Positions 12,293-46,624 of a stretch of DNA of 64,000 bases are shown piece by piece. The stretch spans positions 1,456 through 65,455 of the forward strand of contig CAYHZA010000001.1 in the NCBI GenBank assembly GCA_964361095.1, written 5' to 3'. This DNA is from an uncultured Candidatus Saccharibacteria bacterium. GTDB taxonomy: Bacteria > Patescibacteriota > Minisyncoccia > UBA6257 > 2-01-FULL-56-20. A model generated the notes under the pieces. That model was not told the origin of the DNA. It searched no databases and saw only the letters and a list, made by a program, of their open reading frames with translations. The translations under genes and the position numbers were made by a program. Position 1 is the first letter of the stretch, and every line of letters begins with the position of its first letter.

Positions 12293-12322
12293 GACCGTAT
12301 GGTTCGCCCAGCGGTCTTTTTT
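12293..12322 (+). terminator. Hairpin gaccg-TATGGTTCGCCCAG-cggtc plus T6. The loop is conserved with 46594-46615.
   Basis: Stem sequences differ between the two copies but remain complementary. The 14-nt loop (t/c)ATGGTTCGCCCAG is identical apart from one position. Confidence 0.55.
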
Positions 12323-12439
12323 ATTAACCGCGCCAGCAAATCCAGAAGATGGACACTTTGACCTATCTATCGTATAGTTTTTCAAGTATAATCAGAAAAA
12401 TCATATACCTATCCACAAACTCTGCGGAGGATTATCGAC

Positions 12440-12787
12440 ATGCTTGTGCTTCTGGAAGCTCTGCTCTACAAGTTCGGTTTCAAGAAATTCTCGGTTGAAA
12501 AGCTCTATGCGAACTTCTTGAGCGGAGAATTGTCAGAGGATCAACTGCACCTGTTTTTGAAGATCCATCAGGTAAAAGACTTTACCGCGCTTCACGAGCG
12601 AGTGAAGAAAAATCTGGAAGAGGGAAAACACGATCCATGCCTGCTCACTTTGTTTCCCACGCTCTTGAAAGATCCTCGGCGCATGCATGTCGCTCTCTGC
12701 CAAGTTGATTGTGTAATCGAGCGAGACTTGGAGAAAGGCATCCTGCGGCGGAAAGGAAAGGGCAACGTCGTGAGGAGAACGGACTAA
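12440..12787 (+). CDS. Hypothetical protein
   Basis: 115-aa ORF with RBS gcggagg. No recognisable motifs. Confidence 0.4.
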   Translation: MLVLLEALLYKFGFKKFSVEKLYANFLSGELSEDQLHLFLKIHQVKDFTALHERVKKNLEEGKHDPCLLTLFPTLLKDPRRMHVALCQVDCVIERDLEKGILRRKGKGNVVRRTD

Positions 12788-12879
12788 ATGTCATAACACG
12801 ATCCGGTTGGTCCAAAGCCCGAAATTCTGCAGAGAATATTCGGGCTTTTGTTTTTATCGGGTGCCGGAATAATTTACTT

Positions 12880-13473
12880 TTACGCAATGAAACATTTTCT
12901 ATAAACGGAAAGAATCAATAGCATATTTACAGCAAGAAGATAGACTTGAAAACTCGCATTCTCGATATTCCAAATGGGAATTGAGGGTAAAACCAAAAGG
13001 ACGCTGACTAAACTCGCAACATAGGTCAGGCCAGTTTCTGTTTCCGGATTTGTCCAAGTCTTCTTGATAGTAGGCAGTGCCGCAAATCCGTCACCTGTAG
13101 CAGCAAGCACGATTGCGAGACGAGGAGAATCGGCAAGAATCCAAACAATAAGGGCTATGAGGGAAAGTGCTCCGCATATAAAATCAAAGATGCCAAGTTT
13201 CCAATAACTCTGCTTATTAAAAAAGGAGAAAAGCACCACAAGAAGAGGAATAAATCCGGCAAGAAATATTCGAACAGTTGCCCAGGGATCGGCATGAGCA
13301 TAAATAGCAGCTCCGGTTCCAATCAAGGGAGCAATAGCCCACATTGCCCAGGAAAGACGATTCGGCTTCGTTTTTCCTCTCAGAGTATCTCGAATATAGA
13401 CTGATGCCCCGGCAAGGGAAATAAAAGCACTTGCTATAACAAGCCAATGAACAAAGCTAATTGAAAATAACAT
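12880..13473 (-). CDS. Hypothetical multi-pass membrane protein
   Basis: 197 aa with about 6 hydrophobic helices. Confidence 0.5.
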   Translation of the reverse strand: MLFSISFVHWLVIASAFISLAGASVYIRDTLRGKTKPNRLSWAMWAIAPLIGTGAAIYAHADPWATVRIFLAGFIPLLVVLFSFFNKQSYWKLGIFDFICGALSLIALIVWILADSPRLAIVLAATGDGFAALPTIKKTWTNPETETGLTYVASLVSVLLVLPSIPIWNIENASFQVYLLAVNMLLILSVYRKCFIA

Positions 13474-13619
13474 ATTGCCACAATTATACTCCTAAAAGCT
13501 TTCAAGTTTCATCCTGGACGTTGAGCAAAATTAATTTACCCCGATGCGCGACTTTGGGCAGGCGTACCCCATATCCAAAAGTCGCTATTTAAGCACAATC
13601 GTGCTAAGGTGTATAGACA

Positions 13620-14021
13620 ATGAAGCCGGTTAATAAGGTAAAAATCGACTTAGATAAAAAGTTCCAAAAGGTGATAGAAACACCGGCGGGTTTTGATTTC
13701 TTTGTGGCAATTCATGATTTCGTTGAACACATTGAGTCGAACGCATCGCTTTCCGCCAGTCTTTCGTCCCGCGTGAAATTGAACCAAGAATTGAATATTC
13801 CCAATAAATACGCTTATTTGAAACAGATCTATCAAGGGCTCGAAGATGCCGAAACGAAATCAAATGCCGATTTGGGTCATGCGAGATACGCGGTGCTCAT
13901 AGAACTGAATCGGATCCGTGGCAAAGAGGTTTCGGAAAGCAATTCGTTTTGGAAAAAACGGGAACTGTTCAGGAGATTGACGAGCGAAATCTACCAGAGA
14001 TTGAATCCCACTACGGTATAA
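13620..14021 (+). CDS. Hypothetical protein
   Basis: 133-aa ORF followed by hairpins and a terminator. Confidence 0.45.
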   Translation: MKPVNKVKIDLDKKFQKVIETPAGFDFFVAIHDFVEHIESNASLSASLSSRVKLNQELNIPNKYAYLKQIYQGLEDAETKSNADLGHARYAVLIELNRIRGKEVSESNSFWKKRELFRRLTSEIYQRLNPTTV

Positions 14022-14023
14022 AT

Positions 14024-14090
14024 CCCGTTAGAAATCCGCCCTGTCTTGCTACGGGCGGCAGTTGCCTTTGGGAGGCTTGTTTCTAACGGG
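14024..14090. repeat. Long hairpin CCCGTTAGAAA...TTTCTAACGGG (member of the CCCGTTA-type palindromic repeats)
   Basis: 11-bp terminal stem around a structured 45-nt interior. The stem motif is related to the hairpins at 8556 and 8692. Confidence 0.45.
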
Positions 14091-14097
14091 ATAAATA

Positions 14098-14130
14098 AAA
14101 AATACCCCCGATTATCGGGGGTATTTTTTA
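14098..14130. terminator. Bidirectional rho-independent terminator aaaaaataccccc g-attat-cgggggtatttttt
   Basis: GC stem flanked by an A-tract and a T-tract. Lies between the convergent genes 13620-14021 (+) and csp (-). Confidence 0.7.
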
Positions 14131-14142
14131 AGTGTCAGCGAT

Positions 14143-14340
14143 TTATTCGCGTGACACGTTCGTGGCGCTCGGGCCCTTCTCTCCATCAACGACTTCAAAA
14201 GTGACGATATCGCCAACTTTAAGTTCGTCGAATGTTACACCTTGTAACTCCTTGGAGTGAAAGAAAAGGTCCTTCGTTTCGCCTTCACGGGTAATGAATC
14301 CAAATCCTCTATCCGTGAGTGTTTTTATGGTTCCTTTCAT
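14143..14340 (-). CDS. cspA: Cold-shock protein (CspA family)
   Basis: MKGTIKTLTDRGFGFITREG...DLFFHSKEL...GDIVTFEV. RNP1-like motif present. Confidence 0.9.
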   Translation of the reverse strand: MKGTIKTLTDRGFGFITREGETKDLFFHSKELQGVTFDELKVGDIVTFEVVDGEKGPSATNVSRE

Positions 14341-14503
14341 GCAATTTTGTTTTTTACCTAGAAATTCGACTACGTCTCTTGGTTTGGTTACCCTTTAATC
14401 ATACCAAAGATATACAATTTGTCAATCTTCGAGAAGTTTGGGCTAGTAAAAAACGACGCCCGGCTAAGTTTGACCGGGCGTCACGTTGGTGTTTCAGGCG
14501 AGC

Positions 14504-15601
14504 TCATAGGGTTATCCCCACGAGCTCGTCTGTCAGTTCATCCACAGAGAGAATGCGGTCAATACGCGCCGCATTTGTTCCTACCGTAAAGATAGGAAGA
14601 TCGGGAGTGTTATTGCAATCCACGGCACTGAGGAGCGCGTTGCAGATGCAGAATGCCTCATAACCTTCGAGAGCAAGACAAGTCATGCGGCCATCTTTCC
14701 CTTTGTGGAGCAGATATTGCTTATCGCAGACAAGTGGTCGTCCGTGCGAAAGCGCTTGTCGGTATCCCGGTGATGAATTGATCACGCGGAACGGCATGCC
14801 CGAAGGCGAGCCCGGATTCACCGCAACCTCGATGTCCTCCGCGCGCGCGGCAACGATGGCGCGTTTAAATTCTTCCGATGCGCCACTTTCGTGCGTTGCG
14901 GCAAAACGGGTTCCGATCTGTACACCATCGGCTCCGGTTTTGATCCAGTGCACGATGTCTTCGTGCGTATAGATACCACCCGCCACGATGACCGGGAAGT
15001 TGCCGTTTTTCTGTGCGGATTCTTTTACGGGTCCGAAGATCTCCTCCAGTTGAAATTCCGGCTTGGGAATATCTTCCGCCTTGAAGCCAAGGTGTCCGCC
15101 CGCAAGCGGTCCTTCGAGAACCACTGCGTCCGGCATTCGTCCGTAACGATTCCAGCGTCGACAGATAAGCTCCAATGCGCGTCCGGAAGAAACAATGGGA
15201 ATAAGCGCCACCTGCGCGTTTCCCACGGTTTCCGGAAGAGTCATCGGCAGACCTGCGCCGGCAAGAATGATATCTACTCCGCCTTCAAGTGCGCCCTCGA
15301 TAGAAGGAACATACGTTTTTTCAACGAGGACCATGCAATTGATCGCAATCGCGCCCTTATTTTCCGAAAGTCGCCTTGCTTCTTCGATTTCGAGCTTGGC
15401 GGCTTCCCGATGGCCCACCTTGAGACCAATTCTTCGCTCAACCATTTTGTCTAAGGCAACGAAGGATACTGTTCCGACGCCGCCTCTACGTGCAACTGCT
15501 CCGGCAAGACGCGCGAGCGATACGCCCGCGCCCATGCCTCCCTGGATAAAGATTACTTTGCGATCCAGGCCGCGGACGGCAATAGTCGGCAACGGCACCA
15601 T
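14504..15601 (-). CDS. Nitronate monooxygenase / NPD-family FMN oxidoreductase (FabK-like)
   Basis: IQGGMGAGVS motif and GADGVQIGTRF. The likely start is the internal ATG (MVPLPTIAV...), preceded by gagagggggg. Confidence 0.75.
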   Translation of the reverse strand: MVPLPTIAVRGLDRKVIFIQGGMGAGVSLARLAGAVARRGGVGTVSFVALDKMVERRIGLKVGHREAAKLEIEEARRLSENKGAIAINCMVLVEKTYVPSIEGALEGGVDIILAGAGLPMTLPETVGNAQVALIPIVSSGRALELICRRWNRYGRMPDAVVLEGPLAGGHLGFKAEDIPKPEFQLEEIFGPVKESAQKNGNFPVIVAGGIYTHEDIVHWIKTGADGVQIGTRFAATHESGASEEFKRAIVAARAEDIEVAVNPGSPSGMPFRVINSSPGYRQALSHGRPLVCDKQYLLHKGKDGRMTCLALEGYEAFCICNALLSAVDCNNTPDLPIFTVGTNAARIDRILSVDELTDELVGITL

Positions 15602-15764
15602 GGGTCTTAACCCCCCTCTCTTTTGAAGATGTAAATTAGGTTGCTGGTTTAAGCCTAACACTAGTCAAAAATATTGCGCAACGTGTATCTTCTATAGGGG
15701 TCTGTTTGGTGGCGTATGTTACTTTATTTCAAGGTTCGAAAATCCTGTGGTAGAATAGGTTTGT

Positions 15765-16112
15765 ATGAAACTTGAAGAACGGACGAATATCTCAGATTTT
15801 TTGTGGTTTTCGGGAAAATTCGTGCGTTTTCTCGCCTACGCTTCTCTGGTTTTTTTGTTTTCCGAAGGGCTTTTTCGTCACTGGAAGATCGCCGCGCACT
15901 CTTCTTTGCCCGAGCAGTTCGTTGTTGCCATTGCTTATGCGCTTTTTGATATTGCTGTAATTTCCGTGCTCTTGCTTAGTTTTTTCTTGGCAATCCAGAC
16001 GTATGTGACGTACAGGCGCTGGGTAGTCGTGGGTATTTTACTTCTCATCGTCGCCTTCGCCGCTCCGGAGGCGATGCGGAGCGCATTTGACTACTTCCGA
16101 GCGATTATTTGA
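15765..16112 (+). CDS. Hypothetical small membrane protein
   Basis: 115 aa with 3 hydrophobic segments. Confidence 0.35.
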   Translation: MKLEERTNISDFLWFSGKFVRFLAYASLVFLFSEGLFRHWKIAAHSSLPEQFVVAIAYALFDIAVISVLLLSFFLAIQTYVTYRRWVVVGILLLIVAFAAPEAMRSAFDYFRAII

Positions 16113-16148
16113 GGTAACGCAGTAATCGTATTTAGATAAAAAATTCTT

Positions 16149-17144
16149 ATGCTTATCGATAATGTTGTTATTAAAGTAGTAGCCGGAAAAGGCGGCGATG
16201 GAGCCGTTGCGTTCAGCCACGTAAAGATGACGCTTGGACCCACGGGTGCGCACGGGGGCAGGGGTGGTGATGTGTATTTTGAAGCAGTATCGGATCTTGG
16301 GGCACTCCGCCGTTTTCGCGCGAGAAAAGTATTTGTCGCGGAGAATGGCCAGCATGGTCGTTCCTCTTTTCGTGACGGACATGAAGGCAAGGATCTAATC
16401 CTTACGGTTCCGCGCGGGACGGTGGTTCATAATACGACCGCGGGTACGGAACACGAACTCACGAAACTTGGCGAACGACTTCTCGTGGCGCGCGGCGGCA
16501 GGGGCGGCAAGGGAAATTTCCATTATAAATCTTCGCGCAATACGTCCCCCAAGCAGTTCCAGCACGGATTGCCGGGAGAAGAATGGGGATTGCAGTTGGA
16601 ATTGAAATTAATCGCGGATATAGGTCTTGTGGGATTTCCGAATATCGGGAAATCAAGTTTTTTAAACACCGTAACAAATGCGGAGAGCCGCGTGGCGAAT
16701 TATCCCTTCACGACGCTTGAACCAAACCTTGGTGTCTATCAGGCATTGGTGCTTGCCGATATACCCGGGCTTATCGAAGGCGCTTCTTCCGGAAAAGGGT
16801 TGGGAATAAAATTTTTGCGTCATATTGAACGAACACGAATCCTTTTTCATTTCATTGATGCCGCGACAAAAGATCCACTCGCGGATTATAAAACGCTTCG
16901 CAACGAACTTAAGCTCTATAATCCGCTCCTTCTCAAAAAACCCGAATATATCATACTCTCGAGATCCGACATGATATCTGCCGATCAGATTAAAAAAACC
17001 ATAAAAATTCTTTCGTCGCAAAAGAAGGAAATCTTCGTGCTTTCTCTCTATGATGACACGCTTATAGCGACAGTAACCAAGCTTCTTTCGCGTATCATGA
17101 AAGACATCGAAGTGGTTCCCGATTCCATCGAGCACTCCAAGTAG
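16149..17144 (+). CDS. obg: GTPase Obg/CgtA
   Basis: Obg fold N-terminus with glycine-rich GGxGG repeats. G1 motif GFPNIGKSS. YPFTTLEPNLG. Confidence 0.9.
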   Translation: MLIDNVVIKVVAGKGGDGAVAFSHVKMTLGPTGAHGGRGGDVYFEAVSDLGALRRFRARKVFVAENGQHGRSSFRDGHEGKDLILTVPRGTVVHNTTAGTEHELTKLGERLLVARGGRGGKGNFHYKSSRNTSPKQFQHGLPGEEWGLQLELKLIADIGLVGFPNIGKSSFLNTVTNAESRVANYPFTTLEPNLGVYQALVLADIPGLIEGASSGKGLGIKFLRHIERTRILFHFIDAATKDPLADYKTLRNELKLYNPLLLKKPEYIILSRSDMISADQIKKTIKILSSQKKEIFVLSLYDDTLIATVTKLLSRIMKDIEVVPDSIEHSK

Positions 17145-17148
17145 TTCT

Positions 17149-17904
17149 CTAAAGGGTTTTTTCTTTTTGGGTATCGTCGTATTTCATGATCCTGTCTTTA
17201 CCAGCGTGTTTTGCGTTATAGAGCGCGCTGTCGGATCGTTCCATACACGTCTCGAGCGTGTCACCTGTTTCCCAGTCGGAAACGCCTCCGCTTAGGGTAA
17301 TCGTGAATTCATGGCCCGCGATGCCGCTTTTGAAACTTACTTCGGCTCTGCCGTCCTTTTCGTTGAAATACTTGTCAATAACTTTTTGGGCATCGGTACC
17401 GTTGAAGACGATCGCGAATTCTTCGCCTCCGACGCGGGCGAGGATATCGGATTTTCGAAGCTCTCCTCCGATTTCTTTTACGAATTGCCGAAGGACCGAG
17501 TCGCCGACATTGTGGCCGTAGATGTCGTTGATTTGTTTAAAGTTGTCTATATCAAGTACTAGGAGTGAGATTTTCTTTTTGCGGCGTCTTTCTCCTTCTC
17601 GCTTTTCGTCTTCACCCGTGAACGCATCGGGCGTAATTTTTTCGAGAAGTTCCTTAAGCCCGCGTACGTTATAGGCTCCGGTCTTCGGATCTTTTGTCGC
17701 GAGTTCTTTCGCTTCCTTAACCTCTCGCTTCAGATCTTCAACCTCAAGATTCAATCCGCGATTTTCTTTAAGAAGCGTTTCGTTCTGCCGTTCCAGTTCG
17801 TCGATCGCGAATTCAAGGCGTTCGATCTCGCCGTCTTCCTTGGGGTCGGCTTTTTCTTCCGTATTTTCTTCTGATTCGAGAATAGGAAATTTTTCTTTGG
17901 GCAT
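17149..17904 (-). CDS. Diguanylate cyclase (GGDEF domain) with N-terminal coiled coil
   Basis: RVGGEEFAIVF (GGEEF motif) and LVLDIDNFKQINDIYGH. Confidence 0.8.
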   Translation of the reverse strand: MPKEKFPILESEENTEEKADPKEDGEIERLEFAIDELERQNETLLKENRGLNLEVEDLKREVKEAKELATKDPKTGAYNVRGLKELLEKITPDAFTGEDEKREGERRRKKKISLLVLDIDNFKQINDIYGHNVGDSVLRQFVKEIGGELRKSDILARVGGEEFAIVFNGTDAQKVIDKYFNEKDGRAEVSFKSGIAGHEFTITLSGGVSDWETGDTLETCMERSDSALYNAKHAGKDRIMKYDDTQKEKTL

Positions 17905-17931
17905 CTTCTCTTATTTTACAACATTTGAATT

Positions 17932-17963
17932 AAAACACCCCCGCTCACAAGCGGGGGTGTTTT
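17932..17963 (-). terminator. Rho-independent terminator aaaacaccccc gc-ttgtgag-cgggggtgtttt
   Basis: Perfect GC stem with a T-tract, downstream of nrdJ on the minus strand. Confidence 0.65.
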
Positions 17964-17979
17964 AATGGTTACGGTACGA

Positions 17980-34223: not shown

Positions 34224-34227
34224 ATAA

Positions 34228-36908: not shown

Positions 36909-36937
36909 AGGGGTGGTAGAATTTCTACATTAAAAAC

Positions 36938-38303: not shown

Positions 38304-38307
38304 CGGT

Positions 38308-39180
38308 TTAGACGGCGATTTCGAAGTTGATTCTCGGATAACTTTGATAGTTTTCAATGAGTGTGTCTTCCGCTTTCCAATCAAAGATCGACGTGAAATT
38401 AGGAGTAGATACGGCAGGAAGAGGATATGTCGATGGGTCGCGGGAAAGTTGTTCTTTTGCTCCGTCCAAATGATTTACGTAAATGTGGGTATCCGCGAGA
38501 AATCCGACGAGATGTCCCTCCTTCAGTCTGGATTCTTTCGCGATAAGGTGCAGAAGAAGGCCGTAACTTGCGATATTAAACGGAAGGCCGAGCATGACAT
38601 CCACCGAGCGTTGATTCCAGAGGAGGTTTAACTTCCCGTTAATAACGGTTATCTGGAAGGCGTAGTGGCATGGGGGCAGACCCATCTTGTCGAGGGTGAG
38701 AGGATTCCAACTTGATACGATCATTCTCCGGTCGTTCGGATCGTTTTTTAATTTTTCGATTACGCGGCGCAGTTGATCGATGCCTTCCGTGCCGTATTGG
38801 GCTTCGTATCCGCGATATTCGGCGCCGAAGTGTCTCCATTGAAAACCGTAAATCGGTCCAAGGTCCCGCTCCTCGAGCATTTTCTGTTTCGTGACCGCGT
38901 CGTGTCCGTAAGGAACTTTTTCCGGACTCGCCCATTCATCCCAAATATGATTCCCGTGATCTTGGAGCCATTTTTTATCGGTGGAGCCTTTTATGAAGAA
39001 TTCGAGTTCGCTCGCGATGAGTCGGAACGGTATTTTTTTTGTCGTAAGAAGCGGGAATCCCCGCGTCATGTCGTGTTCGAAAATCGCGCCCGCTATCGTA
39101 AGCGCGTCTACGCCCGTTCGGTTTTTTTTCCGCTCTCCCTTTTGTATGACGTTTTGGACGATCGTTAAATACGGTTTCAT
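38308..39180 (-). CDS. thyA: Thymidylate synthase (ThyA)
   Basis: MKPYL...RTGVDALTIAG...PPCHYAFQ...DTHIYVNH. Confidence 0.9.
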   Translation of the reverse strand: MKPYLTIVQNVIQKGERKKNRTGVDALTIAGAIFEHDMTRGFPLLTTKKIPFRLIASELEFFIKGSTDKKWLQDHGNHIWDEWASPEKVPYGHDAVTKQKMLEERDLGPIYGFQWRHFGAEYRGYEAQYGTEGIDQLRRVIEKLKNDPNDRRMIVSSWNPLTLDKMGLPPCHYAFQITVINGKLNLLWNQRSVDVMLGLPFNIASYGLLLHLIAKESRLKEGHLVGFLADTHIYVNHLDGAKEQLSRDPSTYPLPAVSTPNFTSIFDWKAEDTLIENYQSYPRINFEIAV

Positions 39181-39300
39181 CTGTTTTGTGTACATAGTAT
39201 CAGTGTTTTTTTCTTGGCGCAATTGATGCGTTTTAAGGTGTTGGGGCGTATATCCTATGCATCGTTGTCAAAACAAAAAAGGTGTGATATTCTTACCAGC

Positions 39301-39954
39301 ATGGAATTAGCAGTTGAAGAACGCAAAAAATTCGGGAAAGCAGGTAAAACACTCCGTGGCGAGGGTTTGATTCCCGCGGAATTGTATGGGCATGGGCTTC
39401 AAAACATGCATCTCGCGGTAAAAACAAAAGAGTTTTCAAAGGTGTTTAAAGAAGCGGGAGAGAATATCATTGTGAATCTTATGTTCGGAAAAGAAAAACT
39501 TCCGGCGCTTATCCACGATATCCAACGGCACTATGTGACCGATGAAATAATCCATATCGATTTTTATCAGGTGAGAATGGACGAAAAAATTACGACTCAT
39601 ATTCCGATCGAATTTACGGGAGACGCGCCTGCCGTAAAAGAACAAGGTGGATTTTTGAATAAAACATTGACAGAGATTGAAGTAGAAGCTTTACCGGCCG
39701 ATTTACCGCATGGTTTTACTTTGGATTTAGGATCTTTGAATGAGTTGAATAAAAGTTTATATGTTAAAGATATTTCGGTGCCGTCGGGCGTCAAGGTGCT
39801 TCTTGACCCGGAGGCGGTGGTGGTAACGGTTATTCCTCCTGTTAAAGAAGAAGAGAAGGTTGAAGTTCCCGTTGACGTAACCGCCGTCAAAGTTGAATCC
39901 GAAGAAAAGAAAGCAGAACGAGCAGCGGAAAAATCTAAAGAAGAGAAAGAGTAG
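39301..39954 (+). CDS. rplY: Ribosomal protein bL25 / general stress protein Ctc
   Basis: MELAVEERKKFGK...LRGEGLIPAELYG. Confidence 0.75.
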   Translation: MELAVEERKKFGKAGKTLRGEGLIPAELYGHGLQNMHLAVKTKEFSKVFKEAGENIIVNLMFGKEKLPALIHDIQRHYVTDEIIHIDFYQVRMDEKITTHIPIEFTGDAPAVKEQGGFLNKTLTEIEVEALPADLPHGFTLDLGSLNELNKSLYVKDISVPSGVKVLLDPEAVVVTVIPPVKEEEKVEVPVDVTAVKVESEEKKAERAAEKSKEEKE

Positions 39955-40006
39955 ATTTAGAGGTGTTGTCGTTTTACAAATTCAAACGTAGTATTTAAGG
40001 CACAGT

Positions 40007-41443
40007 ATGTCGAAGCTTTCAAAACCAAGAATACTCCGAGACGTGCGGCCCTTTGGAAATATGAGCAATTTCGAAGCTCTTGCTCCGCGGGTTAATTTGC
40101 GATGGAGTTCTTTTTTTGTGATTCCCGTAGGAAGGTTTGTGAAGTATCTTGTGGGGGCTTTCGCGCTTCTTACATTCATTACGGGTTCGGCATCCGCTCC
40201 TACGATGCTTACTCTCGCGGCTCCGAATGTTCCAACGGCTCCAAATCAAGAAGAACGGAATGCGCTTGAAGTTCAACTTCAGGATCTTGAACGCCAAATC
40301 GACGAATACGAGAATCAAGTTACCACCTATAAAAAACAGGGAGGAAATTTAAAAACCCAAATTTTGAGCTTGAACGGAAAGATCTCCCAAATTAACCTTA
40401 AAATTAAGGCGGTCACTTTGACATTGGGACAAATTGATAGACAAATCGACGAAACACAAGAAGAAATTAGCGGAACCGAAGCGGAAATACGGATTAACAA
40501 GGAGGCGATAAGTATTTTATTGCAAAATATTTACGCAAACGACCAAGTAAGTTTGATAGAGATTTTTCTCGCGAAACCGAAGCTTTCCGATTTTTTTGGC
40601 GACATGAATAACATCGCGCTCCTTCAAAAGAATTTACGTGTTGCCTTGAGTGGGGGTGTGAATCTTCACGAAAAACTTACCGAAGAAAAAACTCGGCTTG
40701 TACTCGCGCGATCTGATGCGACAATGTTGAAAAACCATAATGCCGTTCAGCGCGCGGAAGTTGAGCGCACGAAGCTCGAGAAGAATAATTTGCTTCTCGC
40801 GACAAAAGGACAAGAATCAAAATATCAGTCATTACTCAAGGAAACAAAAAAAACCGCGGCGCAGATACGCAGCCGACTCTTCCAACTTTTGGGCGGGGGA
40901 GAACTTACATTCGAACAGGCTTATGAATACGCGAAGCTTGCCTCAAACGCGACGGGTGTGCGCCCCGCGCTCATTTTAGCGGTACTCGATAGAGAATCCG
41001 CGCTGGGACAAAATGTGGGACGATGCGGCTATAAAACATCAATGAGTCCGAAGAACCAGCCGATCTTTCTCGATATCACGAAGGAGTTGAAAATTAATCC
41101 GGATACGATGATGGTGTCGTGCGCGAATAAAGACGGCGCTTATGGCGGCGCTATGGGTCCCGCTCAATTTATTCCCTCAACATGGATTCTCTATCGTGAT
41201 GCGGTTGCAAGAGTTACGGGCAATACTCCGGCTTCTCCTTGGAGTAATGCCGATGCTTTCGTGGCTACCGCTTTGTATCTTCGGGATGCCGGCGCTGCAA
41301 ATGCTTCGATCACCGAAGAACGAAAGGCGGCGGCTCGCTACTATGCGGGCGGAAGATGGCAAAGGTTCCTTTGGACCTATGGTGAAGCCGTGGTGAGCCG
41401 TGCCCAGAGGTTCCAGCAGGATATCGCGGCGATAACCGGTTAG
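40007..41443 (+). CDS. Secreted coiled-coil protein with C-terminal lytic-transglycosylase-like domain
   Basis: N-terminal TM/signal and long coiled coil. [10 protein letters not shown] motif. Confidence 0.55.
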
Positions 41444-41565
41444 TGTTTTAGTCCGGGGTTTTAGGGCGTCACAAGACCGGCCGGCACGCCGGCTATTTCA
41501 TTTCTCCGAGAATTTCTTTACTATTAGATTGTCGAATAAAATCTTATATCACCATAGTAAACGTT

Positions 41566-42831
41566 ATGCATAAAAAAATAGTCCTTAGGAATGGTTTACG
41601 TCTTATTCTCGCGCCCCAGCCGACGAGTTTTGCGGCGACGGCCCTTATTTTAGTCGAAGCCGGTTCGGAGTATGAGACAAAGGATATAAACGGTGTCTCC
41701 CATTTCCTTGAGCATATGGTGTTTAAGGGTACGACGAAGCGGCCGGAGGCAAGCACTATCTCAAGCGAACTCGACAGCCTTGGCGCCGAATACAATGCTT
41801 TCACCGGTCAGGAATACACGGGTTATTGGGCGAAGGTTCAGAACAAAAAAATCGCGGAAATCTTGGATATTGTCGCGGATATGTATTTAAATCCGCTTTT
41901 TAAGTCCGAAGAGATTGACAAGGAACGGGGAGTGATTATTGAAGAGATCAATCTTTACGAAGACACGCCAACGCGCCGCGTGCATGATCTTTTTACGACG
42001 CTTCTTTATGGCAACCAGCCGGCTGGCTGGGATATCGGAGGAAGAAAAGAAGTTATCAGAAAATTAAAGCGGGAAGATTTTATCAAGTATCGTGCAGCGC
42101 ATTACGTTGCCCCGGCAACGGTAGTGGCGATTGCGGGAAATTTCAACGTGAAAAGAGTTATGGCGCAAGTAAAGGGACTCTTTGGTGGCCTCAAGCGTGA
42201 GCGAAAACAAGGGAAATCACGCACTCATGAATCACAATCAAAACCGAAGATGTTTTTGAAATTCAAGGAATCGGAGCAGAGCCATCTTGTATTGGGGACT
42301 CGCGCATTCAATCTTTTTGACAAGCGGCGTTATGCGCTCCAGGTTTTGAGCGATGTCTTAGGAGGAGGGATGAGTTCCCGTCTTTTCCGGAGAGTTCGTG
42401 AGGAACTTGGCGCCGCATATTACGTCCGCGCGGGATCGGAATTATCGATCGATCACGGCTATCTCTCGGTTTCGGCGGGTGTTGATCATTTGAAAATTGA
42501 AAAAGTAATAGCGATCGTACTCGAAGAAATGAACCGCTTGAAAAAAGAGGAGATTCCTCGCGGAGAACTTCAAAAGGCAAAGGATCATCTTTCGGGGAGT
42601 GTTATCTTGGGTTTGGAAACGTCGGATGAACTTGCCGGTTTTTACGGCGGAGAAGAGATCGCGACGCGCTCCATTGAAGAACCGGAGGTCCTTATTAAAA
42701 AGATCCAGAAGGTTACTGCCGAGGAGATAAGAAAAGTCGCGCAAGATATTTTCCAAAATGCCAAGTTGAATATGGTCGTTATCGGACCCTATAAGAAAGA
42801 AGATACATTCAAACGAATTCTAAAACTATAA
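41566..42831 (+). CDS. M16-family zinc peptidase (insulinase-like)
   Basis: HFLEHMVFKGT (inverted HxxEH zinc motif). Confidence 0.75.
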   Translation: MHKKIVLRNGLRLILAPQPTSFAATALILVEAGSEYETKDINGVSHFLEHMVFKGTTKRPEASTISSELDSLGAEYNAFTGQEYTGYWAKVQNKKIAEILDIVADMYLNPLFKSEEIDKERGVIIEEINLYEDTPTRRVHDLFTTLLYGNQPAGWDIGGRKEVIRKLKREDFIKYRAAHYVAPATVVAIAGNFNVKRVMAQVKGLFGGLKRERKQGKSRTHESQSKPKMFLKFKESEQSHLVLGTRAFNLFDKRRYALQVLSDVLGGGMSSRLFRRVREELGAAYYVRAGSELSIDHGYLSVSAGVDHLKIEKVIAIVLEEMNRLKKEEIPRGELQKAKDHLSGSVILGLETSDELAGFYGGEEIATRSIEEPEVLIKKIQKVTAEEIRKVAQDIFQNAKLNMVVIGPYKKEDTFKRILKL

Positions 42832-42847
42832 GATAAAAACTGCTCGT

Positions 42848-43870
42848 ATGGAAAAGGTCAATTTGGAAATTTCATGGGGTGCGCTCTGGCGAGTGCTTTT
42901 CTTTGTTCTCTTTGTTGCGGTTATGTTTTTGGCGCGTCAGATCTTTTTCGGTCTTTTCCTCGCGATCGTGATTTCTTCGGGACTTGAGGGTGTCGTGAAT
43001 TTTTTGGAAAAACGCGGTTTACCGCGGGCGTTAAGCGTTATTGCTATTTTCGTCGCGGGTATTGTGATGGTGATAGGAGTGGTTTATCTCGCGGTGCCTC
43101 TTCTTATCGCGGATATTAATATCGCGGTTACCAGTTTTAATAAATCGATCCAATCGTTCGGATTCGGACCCGTGTTGAATCCCGAGATCTTGAAGTCATT
43201 CAACGGTTTTATCACGAGAATTTCAACGAGTTTATTTTCTTCCGACAGTACGTCGCCGCTTGAAGCGCTTTCCGGATTTTTGGGGGGATTAAGTCTGGCG
43301 GTTTCGGTATTCGTGAGCTCGTTTTACTTGAGTCTTACCAAGGACGGAGTTGAGCGTTTCATTCGCGCGGTATTTCCCGCCGATTCGGAAGAAGCGGCGC
43401 TTCGTGTATATGATCGTTCAAAACGACAGATTGCGATTTGGTTCCGTACGCAAGTGATCTTGAGTTTTGTGATAGGAATTTTGGTTTGGGGAGCGCTTTC
43501 TGTTTTAGGAGTAAAGCATGCCTTGCTTCTTGCGATTCTTGCCGGTCTCTTTGAAATTGTGCCGTATGTAGGACCGATCTTGGCGGGCGCCACGGCGGTG
43601 CTTGCGGCTCTCGCGGTTTCCCCTGGCCTCGCGCTTACGACACTTATCGTCTTCCTCGGTATACAACAGCTCGAAAACCATATTCTTGTACCCGTGTTGA
43701 TGAAGCGTTCCGTAGGGCTTCATCCCGTTGTGGTGATCATCGCATTACTTGTGGGAGCGGAGATCATGGGCTTTTTGGGAATCCTCATCGCGGTTCCTGT
43801 CGCCGCGATATTTCAGGAGGTTGTCGAAGATTGGTCCAGTAAAAAAAGATCGCGTTCCGCCGCTTCTTAG
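42848..43870 (+). CDS. AI-2E family transporter (PerM/YhhT-like)
   Basis: 8 TM helices with the typical AI-2E hydrophobicity pattern. Low-specificity call. Confidence 0.5.
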   Translation: MEKVNLEISWGALWRVLFFVLFVAVMFLARQIFFGLFLAIVISSGLEGVVNFLEKRGLPRALSVIAIFVAGIVMVIGVVYLAVPLLIADINIAVTSFNKSIQSFGFGPVLNPEILKSFNGFITRISTSLFSSDSTSPLEALSGFLGGLSLAVSVFVSSFYLSLTKDGVERFIRAVFPADSEEAALRVYDRSKRQIAIWFRTQVILSFVIGILVWGALSVLGVKHALLLAILAGLFEIVPYVGPILAGATAVLAALAVSPGLALTTLIVFLGIQQLENHILVPVLMKRSVGLHPVVVIIALLVGAEIMGFLGILIAVPVAAIFQEVVEDWSSKKRSRSAAS

Positions 43871-43873
43871 CCG

Positions 43874-45328
43874 ATGAGAAAGTTCTATATTACGACGGCG
43901 ATCGATTACGTGAATGACAAGCCGCATCTTGGCCATGCCTTGGAAAAAGTGCAGGCTGATGTTATCGCGCGTTATCATCGCCTCAAAGGCGATGATGTTT
44001 TCTTTTTAACGGGCACGGACGAGCATGGACAGAAAATCGCCCGTGCGGCAAAAGGGGTAGAGAAGGAGCCGCAAAAATTCGTAGATGAAGTTTCCGAGAA
44101 ATTTCGGTCTTTGAAAGACGCGCTTAATTTATCGTATAACGATTTTATCCGCACGAGCGATAAAGAACGGCACTGGCCGGGAGCAGTAAATATGTGGCGG
44201 GAACTTATGCTCGCGGGCGCGATCTACAAGAAAAACTACAAGGGATTTTATTGCGTGGGACACGAGGCGTTTATTACGGAAAAAGAGTTAATTGACGGTA
44301 AATGCCCGGATCATGGGAAAGAGCCCGAAATTATCGAAGAGGAGAATTATTTTTTTAAACTCTCGGAATATGGTTCGCGGATCAAAGAGAAAATAGAGAG
44401 TGATGAATTTCAGATTATTCCGGAGAGTCGTAAGAATGAGATTCTGTCTTTGATTGATCGTGGGCTTGAGGATATAAGCTTTTCACGTTCCGCAAAAAAT
44501 TTAGAGTGGGGCATACCGGTGCCGGATGATTCGGATCAGGTGATGTATGTGTGGTGCGACGCGCTCACAAATTATCTTTCGGCAATCGGCTATGGGCAGA
44601 ATGATGATTATAAAAAATGGTGGCCGGCGGATGTGCAGGTAATCGGCAAGGACATTCTGCGTTTTCACGCCGCAATCTGGCCCGCGATGCTTTTGGCCGC
44701 AGGCTTGGAATTGCCCCAAAAGCTTTTTGTGCATGGGTTTATTACGGTAGATGGCAAGAAAATGTCTAAAACGATTGGGAATGTTCTCGACCCGGTGGAA
44801 TTTATAGAAAAACTGGTTCAAAGGGGCGTTCCGCGAGAGAGCGCAATAGATGCCCTTCGTTATTATTTACTGCGCGAAATTCCCTCGACCGAGGACGGCG
44901 ATTTTTCCGAAGAGAAATTTATCGAGCGCTATAATGCCGATTTGGCGAACGGATTGGGGAATTTGGTAAGTCGTGTTATGAAAATGGCAGGATCTTTTGG
45001 GGCAAAATTAAAAAAGGATGAAGTGGGAAAAATCGAGGGAGACATAACTAATTTACAAATCAATGAAATGTTATTGTGCTTTAATTTTGCTCATGCGCTC
45101 GAGATGATAATGGGTTATTTTAGACAATGCGACATTTACATACAAGAGAAAGAACCATACAAATTGGAGGGTGAACAGGGGCGTTTCCATGTCGAGTATC
45201 TGATGGCGGCCCTGTATAGGGACATAGAGTTTTTGGAACCATTTTTACCGGCAACAAGTAAAAAAATTTTCGACATACTCGAACGTGGTCTAGAGGTAAA
45301 AAACCCTCTTTTCCCCCGCATTTCCTAA
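43874..45328 (+). CDS. metG: Methionine--tRNA ligase (short form)
   Basis: HLGH motif, KMSKT motif, zinc knuckle CxxC. Confidence 0.9.
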   Translation: MRKFYITTAIDYVNDKPHLGHALEKVQADVIARYHRLKGDDVFFLTGTDEHGQKIARAAKGVEKEPQKFVDEVSEKFRSLKDALNLSYNDFIRTSDKERHWPGAVNMWRELMLAGAIYKKNYKGFYCVGHEAFITEKELIDGKCPDHGKEPEIIEEENYFFKLSEYGSRIKEKIESDEFQIIPESRKNEILSLIDRGLEDISFSRSAKNLEWGIPVPDDSDQVMYVWCDALTNYLSAIGYGQNDDYKKWWPADVQVIGKDILRFHAAIWPAMLLAAGLELPQKLFVHGFITVDGKKMSKTIGNVLDPVEFIEKLVQRGVPRESAIDALRYYLLREIPSTEDGDFSEEKFIERYNADLANGLGNLVSRVMKMAGSFGAKLKKDEVGKIEGDITNLQINEMLLCFNFAHALEMIMGYFRQCDIYIQEKEPYKLEGEQGRFHVEYLMAALYRDIEFLEPFLPATSKKIFDILERGLEVKNPLFPRIS

Positions 45329-46156
45329 ATGTATTTCGACGCTCACACTCATTCGCATTTTGCCGCTTTCGAAAACGACTGGAAGGAAGTTATTGATCGT
45401 GCGCTTGCCAAGAATGTATGGATGATTAACGTCGGCACGCAGGCAGATACCTCAAAGAGCGCTATCGAAGTTGCGTATGGATATAAAGAAGGCGTATACG
45501 CGACTGTAGGTCTCCATCCTATTCACACGGAAAAATCGTATCATGACGCGAATGAACTTGGTGATTCTGAAGAGGCGAAAGGATTTACAAGCCGCGGAGA
45601 GGAGTTTGATTATGCCGCGTATTTAAAACTCGCCGAGGATCCCAAGGTGGTCGCGATAGGCGAGTGTGGATTGGATTATTACCGTTTAAGCGAAGAAACT
45701 CGTAAGCGCCAAGAGGCGACGTTCTTGGGACACGTGGAACTTGCGCATGAGGTGAAAAAGCCGCTTATGATTCATTGCAGGAACGCTTTTGCGGACCTTA
45801 TTCGCATCCTTGGGGCGGCAAAAGATTCTTTAAATGACCAGCCGGGTGTCATCCATTTTTTCACCGGAACTCCGGAGGACGCAAAGCAACTTCTGGATCT
45901 TGGATTTTCTTTTACGTTCGGCGGGGTGATCACATTCGCGCGGGATTACGATGAAGTCATAAAAACGATACCTATAGATAGAATACTCTCCGAAACCGAC
46001 GCGCCCTATGTAACTCCCGTGCCCTATCGCGGCAAGCGCAACGAGCCGGCGTACGTGGTTGAGGTGGTCAAAAAATTGGCGGAACTTAAAAATATCGAGG
46101 TGGACAGAATGGAAGCATATATATTTGACAACGCCAAACATATCTTTAAGATATAG
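45329..46156 (+). CDS. tatD: TatD-family metal-dependent hydrolase/DNase
   Basis: N-terminal HTHSH motif and TatD TIM-barrel pattern. Confidence 0.8.
   Translation: MYFDAHTHSHFAAFENDWKEVIDRALAKNVWMINVGTQADTSKSAIEVAYGYKEGVYATVGLHPIHTEKSYHDANELGDSEEAKGFTSRGEEFDYAAYLKLAEDPKVVAIGECGLDYYRLSEETRKRQEATFLGHVELAHEVKKPLMIHCRNAFADLIRILGAAKDSLNDQPGVIHFFTGTPEDAKQLLDLGFSFTFGGVITFARDYDEVIKTIPIDRILSETDAPYVTPVPYRGKRNEPAYVVEVVKKLAELKNIEVDRMEAYIFDNAKHIFKI
46124..46156. repeat. 33-bp direct repeat copy 1 (tatD 3' end tttgacaacgccaaacatatctttaagatatag)
   Basis: 31/33 identical to 46631-46663. Confidence 0.7.
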
Positions 46157-46189
46157 ACAGCAATTCTCGACATCAAGGAGGAAGAAGAG

Positions 46190-46567
46190 ATGTATAGCGA
46201 CGATGTTGTGCGCCAGCTTTTCTACCAGATTGTGGTTCGCCTGCGGGATTCCTTGGGAAAGCCAAAGCCTTTTCACTACAAGCTCGCGATTCTGCTCGGA
46301 GTAAGGGAGCAAGAGGTGCGTTCGTGGGAAGGCGGAGGTCTGCCCGATGAGCAGACGGTGTGGAAAGCGCTCCGCTTGCAGATGCTTCTTGATGCCTTGG
46401 GTAATCAGGTGAACGCAGAAGACCGGATAGGTTTTCTACTTCGGTTCCACCAGGGGCTTTCTGGCCTCCGTCCCATAGACTGTCTTGATTCGGCGTCGGC
46501 AGCGGCCGAGGTGAGGCAACTTGTGTTTGGGGATAGAAATGGTGGGAACGAGATTCCTCAGGGATAG
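46190..46567 (+). CDS. Hypothetical protein (cassette ORF between the tatD-end direct repeats)
   Basis: 125 aa, GC-rich, RBS aaggagg. Confidence 0.35.
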   Translation: MYSDDVVRQLFYQIVVRLRDSLGKPKPFHYKLAILLGVREQEVRSWEGGGLPDEQTVWKALRLQMLLDALGNQVNAEDRIGFLLRFHQGLSGLRPIDCLDSASAAAEVRQLVFGDRNGGNEIPQG

Positions 46568-46593
46568 GATACAGCTCCCATAGAAATTCAAAA

Positions 46594-46624
46594 GCCGCAT
46601 GGTTCGCCCAGCGGCATTTTATTT
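46594..46624 (+). terminator. Hairpin gccg-CATGGTTCGCCCAG-cggc plus T-rich tail. Conserved-loop partner of 12293-12316.
   Basis: See 12293-12322. Confidence 0.5.

What the first reader, a model, noticed from the sequence alone, without database searches (positions are those of the whole stretch)
12293..46624. Two hairpins with different but compensatory stems and a near-identical 14-nt loop (T/C)ATGGTTCGCCCAG
At 12293-12316 the hairpin is gaccg-TATGGTTCGCCCAG-cggtc. At 46594-46615 it is gccg-CATGGTTCGCCCAG-cggc. Stem covariation with strict loop conservation implies selection on the loop sequence, for example a protein-binding site, a processing signal or an attC-like recombination site. It is not a generic intrinsic terminator. 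Each hairpin follows a small GC-rich ORF.
Basis: seen in the sequence. Interest (0 to 1): 0.5.

Follow-up and report, generated by a model that had tools for sequence, protein, structure and literature searches.

The report
Two terminators sharing a conserved cap
Two transcription-terminator hairpins in a Patescibacteria genome share a 20-base core that recurs letter for letter after unrelated genes in many bacteria and phages, and in two other RNA settings, for a reason that is still unknown.

Summary
Both sites carry CCG[T/C]ATGGTTCGCCCAGCGG (12295-12314 and 46595-46614); no shuffle of the window gives a match. The "14-nt loop" is not a loop. It folds as a bulged A plus UGG/CCA, or as GG/CC capped by a UUCG tetraloop. 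Each hairpin is followed by a U-tract and lies 18-26 nt after a small, GC-rich ORFan gene, so both look like intrinsic terminators. The sequence is nevertheless special. The same 20-mer occurs in more than 117 loci of species-representative genomes (mostly Patescibacteria, also Proteobacteria) and in 45 viral contigs, with unrelated flanks and upstream genes. It always has the U-tract on the same strand, and it is far commoner than a more stable perfect-stem version (2 loci) or an arm-swapped version (0 loci). The cap also heads the leader of NYN (HEC-09) nuclease genes, and the first hairpin of one GOLLD RNA subclass. Relatives of this genome lack the hairpin at the orthologous site. There, ORF125 plus the hairpin is a 507-bp insert flanked by a 37-nt direct repeat. 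Verdict: these are terminators of acquired genes, built on a recurrent hairpin cap I found no description of. Why the cap is conserved is unexplained.

The parts
12291..12318 (+). Hairpin 1: GAGACCGU-A-UGG-UUCGC-CCA-GCGGUCUU. The conserved 20-nt core is at 12295-12314 (T variant, with a U.G pair).
   Evidence: Sequence; fold (-13.2 kcal/mol; z = -4.05 against shuffles for the 51-nt context); exact core match.
12317..12325 (+). U-tract of terminator 1 (TTTTTTATT). Its first two T also pair at the base of the stem.
   Evidence: A T-tract follows the core in 132 of 153 unique contexts elsewhere.
12051..12272 (+). ORF73: a small gene with CxxC...CxxC motifs, 55% GC. A GGGAGG ribosome-binding site lies upstream, and a promoter-like site (TTGACA-17-TATTTT) at 11989-12017. 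The stop codon ends 18 nt before hairpin 1.
   Evidence: No Pfam, PADLOC or PHROGs hit.
46594..46615 (+). Hairpin 2: GCCGC-A-UGG-UUCGC-CCA-GCGGC. The conserved 20-nt core is at 46595-46614 (C variant).
   Evidence: Sequence; fold (-11.5 kcal/mol); exact core match.
46617..46626 (+). Interrupted U-tract of terminator 2 (TTTTATTTAT), after a single A.
46190..46567 (+). ORF125: an ORFan of 55% GC with an AGGAGG ribosome-binding site. The stop codon ends 26 nt before hairpin 2.
   Evidence: Its only homologue among 5.8 billion clustered proteins is itself. No Pfam, PADLOC or PHROGs hit.
46124..46160 (+). Direct repeat, copy A: the 3' end of the TatD gene including its stop codon. It contains the promoter-like site TTGACA-16-TAAGAT that would drive ORF125.
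   Evidence: 37 nt, 92% identical to copy B, spacing 507 nt; promoter scan.
46631..46667 (+). Direct repeat, copy B. This is the ancestral-looking copy: it matches the TatD 3' end of relative L375 better than copy A does. It lies 15 nt after hairpin 2 and just upstream of the LOG-family gene.
   Evidence: In L375, TatD is followed directly by the LOG gene.

Best explanation
Both elements are Rho-independent (intrinsic) transcription terminators. They close two lineage-specific, GC-rich small ORFan genes in a Patescibacteria (Paceibacteria/Liptonbacteria-like) chromosome. Each is an interrupted G+C-rich hairpin: a lower stem, a bulged A or 2x2 mismatch, and GG/CC capped by UUCG. A U-tract follows immediately.

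The two are nearly identical because both are built on one recurrent hairpin cap, YAUGGUUCGCCCAG inside CCG...CGG. This cap occurs letter for letter in many unrelated terminators of Patescibacteria, Proteobacteria and phages. Something other than hairpin stability keeps its sequence.

Shown here: the anatomy, the position relative to genes, the wide recurrence, the strand specificity, the fact that the cap is less stable than available alternatives, and the insertion status of ORF125 plus hairpin 2. Inferred: that termination actually happens at these sites, that the modules were acquired horizontally, and that the cap has an added sequence-specific role such as binding a trans-acting factor or protecting the RNA end.
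For: Anatomy: 9-11 pairs and a U-tract starting 0-1 nt after the stem. The hairpins lie 18 and 26 nt after stop codons. The next genes run in the same direction, with a promoter-like site after hairpin 1 and repeat copy B after hairpin 2.

132 of 153 unique contexts have a T-tract downstream; none is a terminator in the opposite orientation. Flanks are unrelated. The first three flanking positions pair in 129, 106 and 90 of 136 cases. Upstream proteins are unrelated, mostly without Pfam hits; the phage copies follow capsid and tail genes.

Not a stability optimum: the core folds at -8.1 kcal/mol, the perfect-stem version at -13.2 and the reverse complement at -9.6. Yet viral loci number 45 for the motif, 2 for the perfect version and 0 for the arm-swapped version. 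Loop variants among T-tailed hits are mostly of the UNCG type. AU/CA makes up 29 of 58 T-tailed variants at the mismatch positions. Near-variants are rare in 0.89 Mb of loci that carry the motif, and no other 13- or 14-mer recurs there apart from tRNA T-arm words and a few G+C-rich coding words.

Acquisition: ORF125 is an ORFan. ORF125 plus hairpin 2 sits between 37-nt direct repeats and is absent from relatives. ORFs upstream of the motif are 3.1 GC points richer than other ORFs of their loci (p = 2e-4).
Against: There are no transcript 3'-end data, so termination is inferred from sequence alone. The U-tract of copy 2 is interrupted (A-UUUU-A-UUU-A-U). The tool's own terminator scan did not list either site, because it requires a 3-8 nt loop on an uninterrupted stem.

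No mechanism was found that explains identical 14-20 nt in non-homologous contexts across phyla. The same cap also occurs where it is not a terminator: at the 5' end of NYN/HEC-09 leaders and as the first hairpin of GOLLD. So termination cannot be the only thing the cap is good for.

Counts from row-capped scans are relative, not absolute.
Confidence: 0.8

Rival explanations
1. The cap is mainly a recognition module for a trans-acting factor, either an RNA-binding protein or an RNase such as a NYN-domain nuclease. It would mark or control transcript ends, and termination would be a secondary or shared function.
For: The cap shows strict sequence conservation, strand specificity and lower stability than alternatives. 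The exact 20-mer is the first hairpin of the leader of NYN (PADLOC HEC-09) genes in nine alphaproteobacterial or compost-metagenome loci. NYN is the commonest Pfam family among the nearest neighbours of the motif in AT-rich loci (4 of 109). The cap is also the first hairpin of a GOLLD subclass.
Against: No binder is identified, and there is no NYN gene next to either window copy. In unbiased samples the homologous hairpin of HEC-09 leaders and of GOLLD varies freely. It keeps only CC...GG ends and a UNCG or CUUG cap, so those RNAs do not need the exact 14-mer. HEC-09 gave no phage defence when tested (bioRxiv 10.1101/2024.01.29.577857).
Confidence: 0.25
2. The hairpins are attC-like or other site-specific recombination sites that mobilise small gene cassettes.
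For: The upstream genes are small ORFans. ORF125 plus hairpin 2 forms a discrete 507-bp insert whose right end is 15 nt past the hairpin. L096 and L098 show arrays of small ORFs separated by repeats of about 38 nt, and one unit ends with the motif.
Against: The direct repeats are a duplicated TatD 3' end and promoter region, not the hairpin. No repeat flanks copy 1. In the L096 array the other units end in different terminators, so the shared element there is the 38-nt repeat, not the hairpin. At 20-28 nt the hairpin is far shorter than attC sites (57-141 nt, from general knowledge), and no GTTRRRY cores are visible. The strict association with a U-tract, and the copies after capsid genes in phages, fit termination.
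Confidence: 0.05
3. It is a miniature mobile or copy-pasted repeat (REP/MITE-like, or spread by short-patch gene conversion) with no function beyond forming a hairpin.
For: Identical copies lie in non-homologous contexts, including several per genome: 2 in this window, at least 3 in MAG JAGWKK01 (L008, L020) and 2 in CAZDPS01. At one orthologous phage site the same outer stem GCCCGC/GCGGGC carries a different interior (CATAGA in phage phi297).
Against: Copy number per genome is low, about one extra copy per 450 kb. No conserved flanks, terminal repeats or target duplications are seen. No transposase or RAYT-like gene appears among the 25 commonest of the 108 Pfam families found in neighbouring genes. 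No known mechanism moves 14-20 nt across phyla. Orthologous pairs keep 20 of 20 core bases while their flanks differ at about 17% of positions (L064 versus L072).
Confidence: 0.08
4. The resemblance is chance, or convergence on a generic strong terminator.
For: CCGC/GCGG stems and UUCG loops are common building blocks. Many CCGC-NN-GGUUCGCC-NN-GCGG terminators with other NN combinations exist in phages, and near-variants occur in E. coli, Ralstonia and Ensifer.
Against: 0 of 100 shuffles give any match. Observed counts exceed the chance expectation by more than an order of magnitude. The motif is less stable than rarer alternatives and is orientation-specific.
Confidence: 0.03

Closest known systems
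Canonical Rho-independent (intrinsic) terminators
   Same: A G+C-rich hairpin followed at once by a U-tract, placed just after a stop codon. The outer stem pairs vary and covary freely.
   Different: Ordinary terminators are conserved in structure, not in sequence. Here a 14-20 nt interior is identical in well over 100 unrelated contexts across phyla. It contains an obligatory bulge or mismatch and is less stable than the perfect version.
UNCG (cUUCGg-type) tetraloop hairpins
   Same: The cap contains GG-UUCG-CC. Natural loop variants among terminator copies are UCCG, UACG and UGCG, plus UUAG.
   Different: The closing pair is G-C, not C-G. The conserved unit extends well beyond the tetraloop (A, U ... 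C, A and the Y.G pair). ViennaRNA slightly prefers a pentaloop register.
Sequence-conserved terminator repeats within one lineage (REP/BIME elements; Neisseria DUS or Pasteurellaceae USS inverted pairs)
   Same: A repeated, imperfect palindrome that lies after genes and can act as a terminator.
   Different: Those are abundant (hundreds to thousands per genome), lineage-specific and tied to a known machinery (RAYT transposase, DNA uptake). This motif has few copies per genome, spans phyla and phages, and has no associated enzyme. The comparison rests on general knowledge and was not tested here.
First hairpin of the 5' domain of GOLLD RNA (Rfam RF02032 models the 3' domain; cryo-EM 14-mer cage, PMC12286853)
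   Same: The exact 14-mer UAUGGUUCGCCCAG caps that hairpin in 20 of 89 members of one GOLLD subclass, with covarying closing stems.
   Different: There is no GOLLD in the window. In GOLLD the hairpin is 5'-proximal and has no U-tract. Most GOLLD members have a plain GG-UUCG-CC or GG-CUUG-CC cap instead.
Leader of NYN-domain (PADLOC HEC-09) genes
   Same: The exact 20-mer is hairpin 1 of a leader made of two hairpins, right after a promoter and followed by a terminator hairpin.
   Different: The window copies have no second hairpin and no downstream NYN gene. In the wider HEC-09 family, hairpin 1 covaries freely.
Integron attC sites
   Same: An imperfect hairpin at the 3' end of a small, promoter-less-looking gene.
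   Different: The size is 20-28 nt against 57-141 nt. There are no R/L boxes and no integron integrase was seen. A U-tract is always present, and the repeats that flank the insert are not in the hairpin.

Membership tests
Intrinsic (Rho-independent) terminator | Stable G+C-rich stem-loop | tested here: met
   -13.2 and -11.5 kcal/mol, with 11 and 8 pairs and one bulge each.
Intrinsic (Rho-independent) terminator | U-rich tract directly 3' of the stem on the transcribed strand | tested here: met
   TTTTTTATT for copy 1 and A-TTTT-A-TTT-A-T for copy 2, which is weaker. 132 of 153 family members elsewhere have one.
Intrinsic (Rho-independent) terminator | Lies at the 3' end of a transcription unit | tested here: met
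   The hairpins start 18 and 26 nt after the stop codons of ORF73 and ORF125. The next genes run in the same direction, with a promoter-like site after hairpin 1 and repeat copy B after hairpin 2.
Intrinsic (Rho-independent) terminator | RNA 3' ends map to the U-tract, or termination is seen in vitro | not testable with these tools
   No transcriptome data are available.
Integron attC site | 57-141 nt imperfect palindrome with R''/L''/L'/R' boxes (GTTRRRY core) and extrahelical bases | tested here: not met
   The hairpins are 22-28 nt, and no GTTRRRY is seen at their borders.
Integron attC site | Adjacent IntI integrase and attI, with cassette boundaries inside the site | tested here: not met
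   The insert boundaries are a 37-nt duplication of the TatD 3' end beside the hairpin. The genes scanned nearby show no integrase. Not every ORF of the window was scanned.
REP/MITE-like dispersed repeat | Many copies per genome with decayed variants, conserved flanking or terminal sequences, and an associated transposase | tested here: not met
   There are 2 copies in 64 kb. Only 2-3 variants at 2-4 mismatches occur in 0.89 Mb. Flanks are not conserved. No transposase appears among the 25 commonest Pfam families of neighbouring genes. The whole source genome was not available.
GOLLD RNA (RF02032) | Match to the Rfam covariance model of the conserved 3' domain | tested here: not met
   The only Rfam hits in the window are four tRNAs. 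Nothing is found at the hairpins even at E <= 10.
NYN/HEC-09 leader RNA (undescribed; defined here) | Promoter-proximal hairpin 1, then a terminator hairpin, then a NYN-domain gene | tested here: not met
   The window copies have no second hairpin and no NYN gene downstream.
Recurrent YAUGGUUCGCCCAG-capped terminator family (defined here) | Exact core CCGYATGGTTCGCCCAGCGG, flanking pairs that extend the stem, and a T-tract on the same strand | tested here: met
   Both window copies meet all three criteria, as do 132 unique contexts elsewhere.

The most novel reading that the evidence does not exclude
The 14-nt cap YAUGGUUCGCCCAG is a portable recognition module for a widespread trans-acting factor. 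One candidate is a NYN-domain RNase of the HEC-09 kind, which would regulate itself through the same hairpin in its own leader, much as Regnase-1 does through a stem-loop in its own mRNA. Another is some other end-binding protein. The factor would read the ends of transcripts from phage-derived or horizontally acquired genes. This would explain why one imperfect hairpin is kept letter for letter in terminators of Patescibacteria, Proteobacteria and phages, in NYN leaders and in GOLLD RNA.
Probability: 0.15. Interest if true: 0.85.

Novelty: new variant of a known kind. Interest (0 to 1): 0.5.

Why it matters
Intrinsic terminators are thought to be constrained only in shape and U-tract. A terminator interior that is identical across phyla and phages, strand-specific and less stable than available alternatives implies an extra layer that has not been described. 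That layer could be a binding partner, a special fold, or a way of spreading. The same cap appears in GOLLD RNA, whose function is unknown, and in the leader of a candidate defence nuclease. This gives three independent experimental routes to what it does. For Patescibacteria, where regulatory signals are almost unknown, it marks recently acquired small genes and gives a simple search handle. For annotation, it is a ready-made, high-specificity terminator signature.

Tried and rejected
- **Rfam.** At gathering score on the whole window, and at E <= 10 around both hairpins, only tRNAs and noise were found. There were also no Rfam hits on the alphaproteobacterial leader loci or on the GC-rich phage variants.
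- **Literature.** A full-text search for the sequence in both orientations, as DNA and RNA, found 0 papers. Searches on Patescibacteria terminators and on UUCG terminators found nothing relevant.
- **A common upstream gene or cassette.** Rejected. The upstream proteins do not cluster, and few have Pfam domains.
- **A terminator of tRNA or tmRNA genes.** Rejected. Only 1 of about 165 copies lies within 100 nt of a tRNA. An E. coli near-variant does follow ssrA at the edge of an island.
- **Conservation at orthologous sites.** Rejected. Relatives with 72-84% identical TatD, or 77-80% identical ABC transporter, lack the motif.
- **Direct repeats around copy 1.** None found. A general scan for repeats flanking the ORF plus hairpin gave clear signal only for the window copy 2, with weaker signal for L096, L098, L032 and L115.
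- **Phage origin of the window ORFans.** No PHROGs hits.
- **Resemblances recalled from memory.** These were the tRNA T-arm (GGTTCG), the complement of 16S helix 45, ssRNA-phage coat-protein operators, a sigma-54 promoter on the other strand, and Chi-like AGCGG. None was testable or convincing, and none is used.
- **Similarity between the window's 37-nt repeat and the L096 array repeat** (TTTAAGAT.TAGGCA). It lies outside the conserved part of the L096 repeat, so I judged it coincidental.

Full report
**1. The observation**

In register they share the 20-mer CCG[T/C]ATGGTTCGCCCAGCGG, at 12295-12314 and 46595-46614. With up to three mismatches allowed, these are the only two copies in the window, and none of 100 dinucleotide-preserving shuffles gives any match. 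The 13-mer alone would not have been convincing: 31 of 100 shuffles give at least two matches at up to two mismatches.

The two copies differ at one core position, T versus C, which faces a G (U.G versus C-G). The pair just outside the core is A-U in one copy and G-C in the other. That is the only true compensatory change.

**2. What the RNA looks like**

The "14-nt loop" is not an open loop. ViennaRNA folds copy 1 as GAGACCGU-A-UGG-UUCGC-CCA-GCGGUCUU, and copy 2 as GCCGC-A-UGG-UUCGC-CCA-GCGGC.

| Copy | A-bulge plus pentaloop | GG/CC plus UUCG tetraloop, 2x2 internal loop (AU/CA) |
|---|---|---|
| Copy 1 | -13.2 kcal/mol | -12.8 kcal/mol |
| Copy 2 | -11.5 kcal/mol | -10.0 kcal/mol |

The two registers are nearly equal in energy.

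Both hairpins are followed at once by a T-tract (TTTTTTATT; A-TTTT-A-TTT-A-T). They start 18 and 26 nt after the stop codons of two plus-strand ORFs of 73 and 125 aa. Each ORF has a good ribosome-binding site and a promoter-like site upstream. The next genes run in the same direction. This is the anatomy of intrinsic terminators. The tool's simple terminator scan missed them only because it requires an uninterrupted stem with a 3-8 nt loop.

**3. What the window is**

The window is a bacterial chromosome segment of 45% GC. It carries MetRS, TatD, a LOG-family protein, LeuRS, Obg, ribonucleotide reductase and tRNAs. The same contigs occur in Hainich groundwater metagenomes, in the 0.1 µm filter fraction. 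The closest TatD and ABC-transporter homologues are named Liptonbacteria, Parcubacteria or Paceibacterota. So the source is a member of the Patescibacteria.

**4. The core is widespread**

I expect about four by chance, given the size of the collection. IMG/VR gave 45 more loci.

- Taxonomy: of the 80 genome loci whose titles were shown, I count about 42 as named Patescibacteria lineages. The rest include Comamonadaceae, Noviherbaspirillum, Brenneria, Rhizobiales and Magnetospirillum. The viral contigs have 49-66% GC.
- Orientation: of 153 unique contexts, 132 have a T-tract just downstream. None is a terminator in the opposite orientation.
- Position 4: it is C or T in all T-tailed copies. 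A or G appears only in G+C-rich loci without a T-tract, which look like chance matches in coding sequence.
- Flanks: they share no similarity outside a few orthologous pairs and show no conserved positions. The first three flanking positions pair in 129, 106 and 90 of 136 cases, extending the stem with different bases each time.
- Upstream genes: the proteins are unrelated to each other and mostly lack Pfam domains. In phage contigs the motif follows major capsid, tail-tube and tip-attachment genes.
- Other recurrent words: in 0.9 Mb of these loci, apart from tRNA T-arm words and a few G+C-rich coding words, no other 13- or 14-mer recurs. Near-variants at 2-4 mismatches are rarer than extra exact copies.

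**5. The core is not a stability optimum**

| Sequence | Predicted energy | Viral loci |
|---|---|---|
| Motif (20-nt core) | -8.1 kcal/mol | 45 |
| Reverse complement | -9.6 kcal/mol | 0 used as a terminator |
| Perfect-stem version, CCGCAUGGUUCGCCAUGCGG | -13.2 kcal/mol | 2 |
| Arm-swapped version | -9.3 kcal/mol | 0 |

Three relaxed scans of the viral contigs probed which positions vary.

- Loop left free: T-tailed hits carry UUCGC 33 times, UUAGC 3, UCCGC 2, and UACGC, UGCGC and CCCGC once each. That is mostly the UNCG tetraloop family.
- The two mismatch positions left free: AU/CA accounts for 29 of 58 T-tailed contexts, while perfect pairs are rare.
- The outer two pairs left free: they covary (CT/AG, CG/CG, CA/TG, GA/TC). 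So the constant unit is the inner 14-16 nt.

**6. The hairpin is not conserved at orthologous sites; it travels with odd genes**

ORF125 has no homologue other than itself among 5.8 billion protein clusters. ORF73 and ORF125 are both 55% GC, against 41-53% for their neighbours.

Relatives keep the gene order M16 peptidase, AI-2E transporter, MetRS, TatD ... LeuRS:

- L375 (TatD 75% identical): TatD is followed directly by the LOG gene.
- L374 (TatD 84% identical): a different 59-aa ORF with a different terminator sits between them.

In the window, ORF125 plus hairpin 2 is a 507-bp insert bounded by a 37-nt direct repeat, 34 of 37 identical (46124-46160 and 46631-46667). The repeat is the TatD 3' end and contains a promoter-like site. 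Copy A reads TTGACA-16-TAAGAT. Copy B resembles the relatives' sequence more closely.

Downstream of the ABC transporter, next to copy 1, gene order is not conserved in relatives, and the region holds four ORFs without any family match.

Across 47 loci, the ORF just upstream of the motif is on average 3.1 GC points richer than the other long ORFs of its locus (31 of 47 positive, Wilcoxon p = 2e-4).

I infer that the motif terminators belong to recently acquired small genes. The route of acquisition is not shown.

**7. The same cap occurs in two other RNA settings**

(a) NYN/HEC-09 leaders. In eight alphaproteobacterial loci the 20-mer sits right after a promoter-like sequence and is followed, with no spacer, by a second hairpin with a U-tract. 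A 205-214 aa NYN-domain gene comes next. It matches PADLOC family HEC-09 at E = 4e-47. In Chelativorans the gene lies between trpB and trpA. HEC-09 is a candidate defence RNase that gave no protection in the one published test (bioRxiv 10.1101/2024.01.29.577857).

In 80 metagenome loci retrieved by protein similarity alone, the leader architecture persists in many of them. It reads AUC, hairpin 1, hairpin 2, U-tract. Hairpin 1 changes with compensatory substitutions and keeps only CC...GG ends and a UNCG loop. Seven of nine predicted pairs show double changes. This leader is not in Rfam.

(b) GOLLD RNA. In AT-rich contigs from large phages, the 14-mer UAUGGUUCGCCCAG caps a hairpin with covarying closing triplets. 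The hairpin lies about 380-400 nt upstream of the Rfam GOLLD (RF02032) match, which scores 181-235 bits. That places it as the first helix of the GOLLD 5' domain, just after a -10-like box. The published structure puts the 5' domain at residues 1-420 (PMC12286853).

An unbiased sample of that subclass, anchored on an unrelated conserved 16-mer, has the exact 14-mer in 20 of 89 loci. Most others carry plain GG-UUCG-CC or GG-CUUG-CC caps on perfect stems. The cryo-EM construct does not contain the 14-mer.

In both families, then, the exact cap is a recurrent variant of a UUCG-capped hairpin rather than a requirement.

NYN-domain genes are the commonest Pfam family among the three nearest neighbours of the motif in AT-rich loci (4 of 109). 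I have not tested whether that count is an enrichment.

**8. Interpretation**

The best-supported reading is that both window elements are intrinsic terminators of two acquired ORFan genes (confidence about 0.8). They resemble each other because both use one widespread hairpin cap.

Why that cap is kept letter for letter is not explained. The data exclude chance, convergence on stability, a shared upstream gene, a larger conserved RNA, and a classical dispersed repeat. They leave open:

- a sequence-specific binder or nuclease; the NYN link is the only lead;
- a special fold that protects RNA ends, since the cap sits at the 3' end in terminators and near the 5' end in GOLLD and in NYN leaders;
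- an unknown short-patch copying process.

The attC idea fails on size, on architecture, and on the position of the repeats.

**9. Novelty and score**

Terminators are known and UNCG caps are known. I found no record of a cross-phylum, strand-specific and thermodynamically suboptimal terminator interior that is also shared with GOLLD and a nuclease leader. I class it as a new variant of a known kind and give it interest 0.5. The phenomenon is solid and surprising. But the function at the two window sites is ordinary termination, and the reason for conservation is open.

Noticed in passing
L004:5780-6513; also L012, L042, L046, L050, L061, L110, L117 and L384-L463: An undescribed leader of two hairpins lies upstream of NYN-domain genes that match PADLOC HEC-09. 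It consists of a promoter-like site, then AUC, then hairpin 1 (CC-stem-UNCG-stem-GG), then a terminator hairpin with a U-tract, then the gene. Both hairpins covary across metagenome loci retrieved by protein similarity, and the leader is not in Rfam. In Chelativorans the cassette sits between trpB and trpA. It could be an attenuator, an autoregulatory target or an RNA antitoxin.
   Followed up: partly
L465-L553 and L554-L653 (for example L496:1100-2012): The first hairpin of the 5' domain of one GOLLD RNA subclass, in AT-rich contigs from large phages and next to tRNA arrays, carries the exact 14-mer UAUGGUUCGCCCAG in 20 of 89 loci. Elsewhere it has a plain UUCG or CUUG cap. A -10-like box lies about 8-10 nt before the GGGCAG start. 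The Rfam model covers only the 3' domain.
   Followed up: partly
window 46124-46667: A 507-bp insert (ORF125 plus terminator) is bounded by a 37-nt direct repeat of the TatD 3' end, which doubles as a promoter-like site for the next gene. Copy A has gained a perfect TTGACA. Relatives have the empty site (L375) or a different small ORF there (L374). The insertion mechanism is unknown; candidates are Campbell-type integration of a small circle, or integration anchored on short homology.
   Followed up: partly
L096:2100-3700 and L098:5100-6300: Arrays of unrelated small ORFs (membrane and soluble proteins) are each preceded by a conserved repeat of about 38 nt (...TAAACTCNATNACACYRCCATCTTC), spaced 196-557 nt apart. 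Most units end in a terminator, and one of these is the motif. They look like cassette arrays of unknown kind.
   Followed up: partly
L168:4001-4034 and L169 (E. coli chromosomes, just downstream of ssrA): A near-variant terminator, GCCCGCATGGTACAAGCCCTGCGGGC, occurs in 106 of 5,426 complete E. coli genomes. In the two loci inspected it lies 35 nt after the tmRNA gene, at the edge of an integrase-bearing island. Klebsiella P2-like phages carry a further variant.
   Followed up: partly
L181, L188, L206, L244, L253 (GC-rich viral contigs): A loop variant of the hairpin (CCGCATGGTGCGCCCAGCGG, or UGUGC) is followed directly by CCCCC...GGGG and by 150-250 nt of G+C-rich, apparently structured intergenic sequence. 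There is no Rfam match. It may be a phage non-coding RNA or leader related to the NYN-leader architecture.
   Followed up: no
L022:444-1087; L028, L079, L081: NYN-domain genes (LabA-like, and one HEC-09-like) lie within the three nearest ORFs of the motif in four AT-rich loci. In L022 the motif terminator is 118 nt upstream of the NYN gene on the same strand.
   Followed up: partly
window 1-8000: The first 8 kb have a much lower GC content (30-39%) than the rest of the window (45-50%). The stretch includes a UvrD-like helicase and a TspO/MBR protein and may be a foreign island.
   Followed up: no
window 12051-14021: A cluster of four ORFs (73, 115, 197 and 133 aa) has no Pfam hit, and none in PHROGs or PADLOC where scanned. 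It lies downstream of an ABC transporter whose neighbourhood is not conserved in relatives, so it appears to be a small variable region.
   Followed up: partly
L170:355-385 compared with L126:5455-5490: At the same position between two tail genes, Pseudomonas phage phi297 has GCCCGC-CATAGA-GCGGGC, while related metagenomic phages have GCCCGC-ATGGTTCGCCCA-GCGGGC. The outer stem is the same and the interior differs. This hints that hairpin interiors can be swapped or remodelled in place.
   Followed up: no
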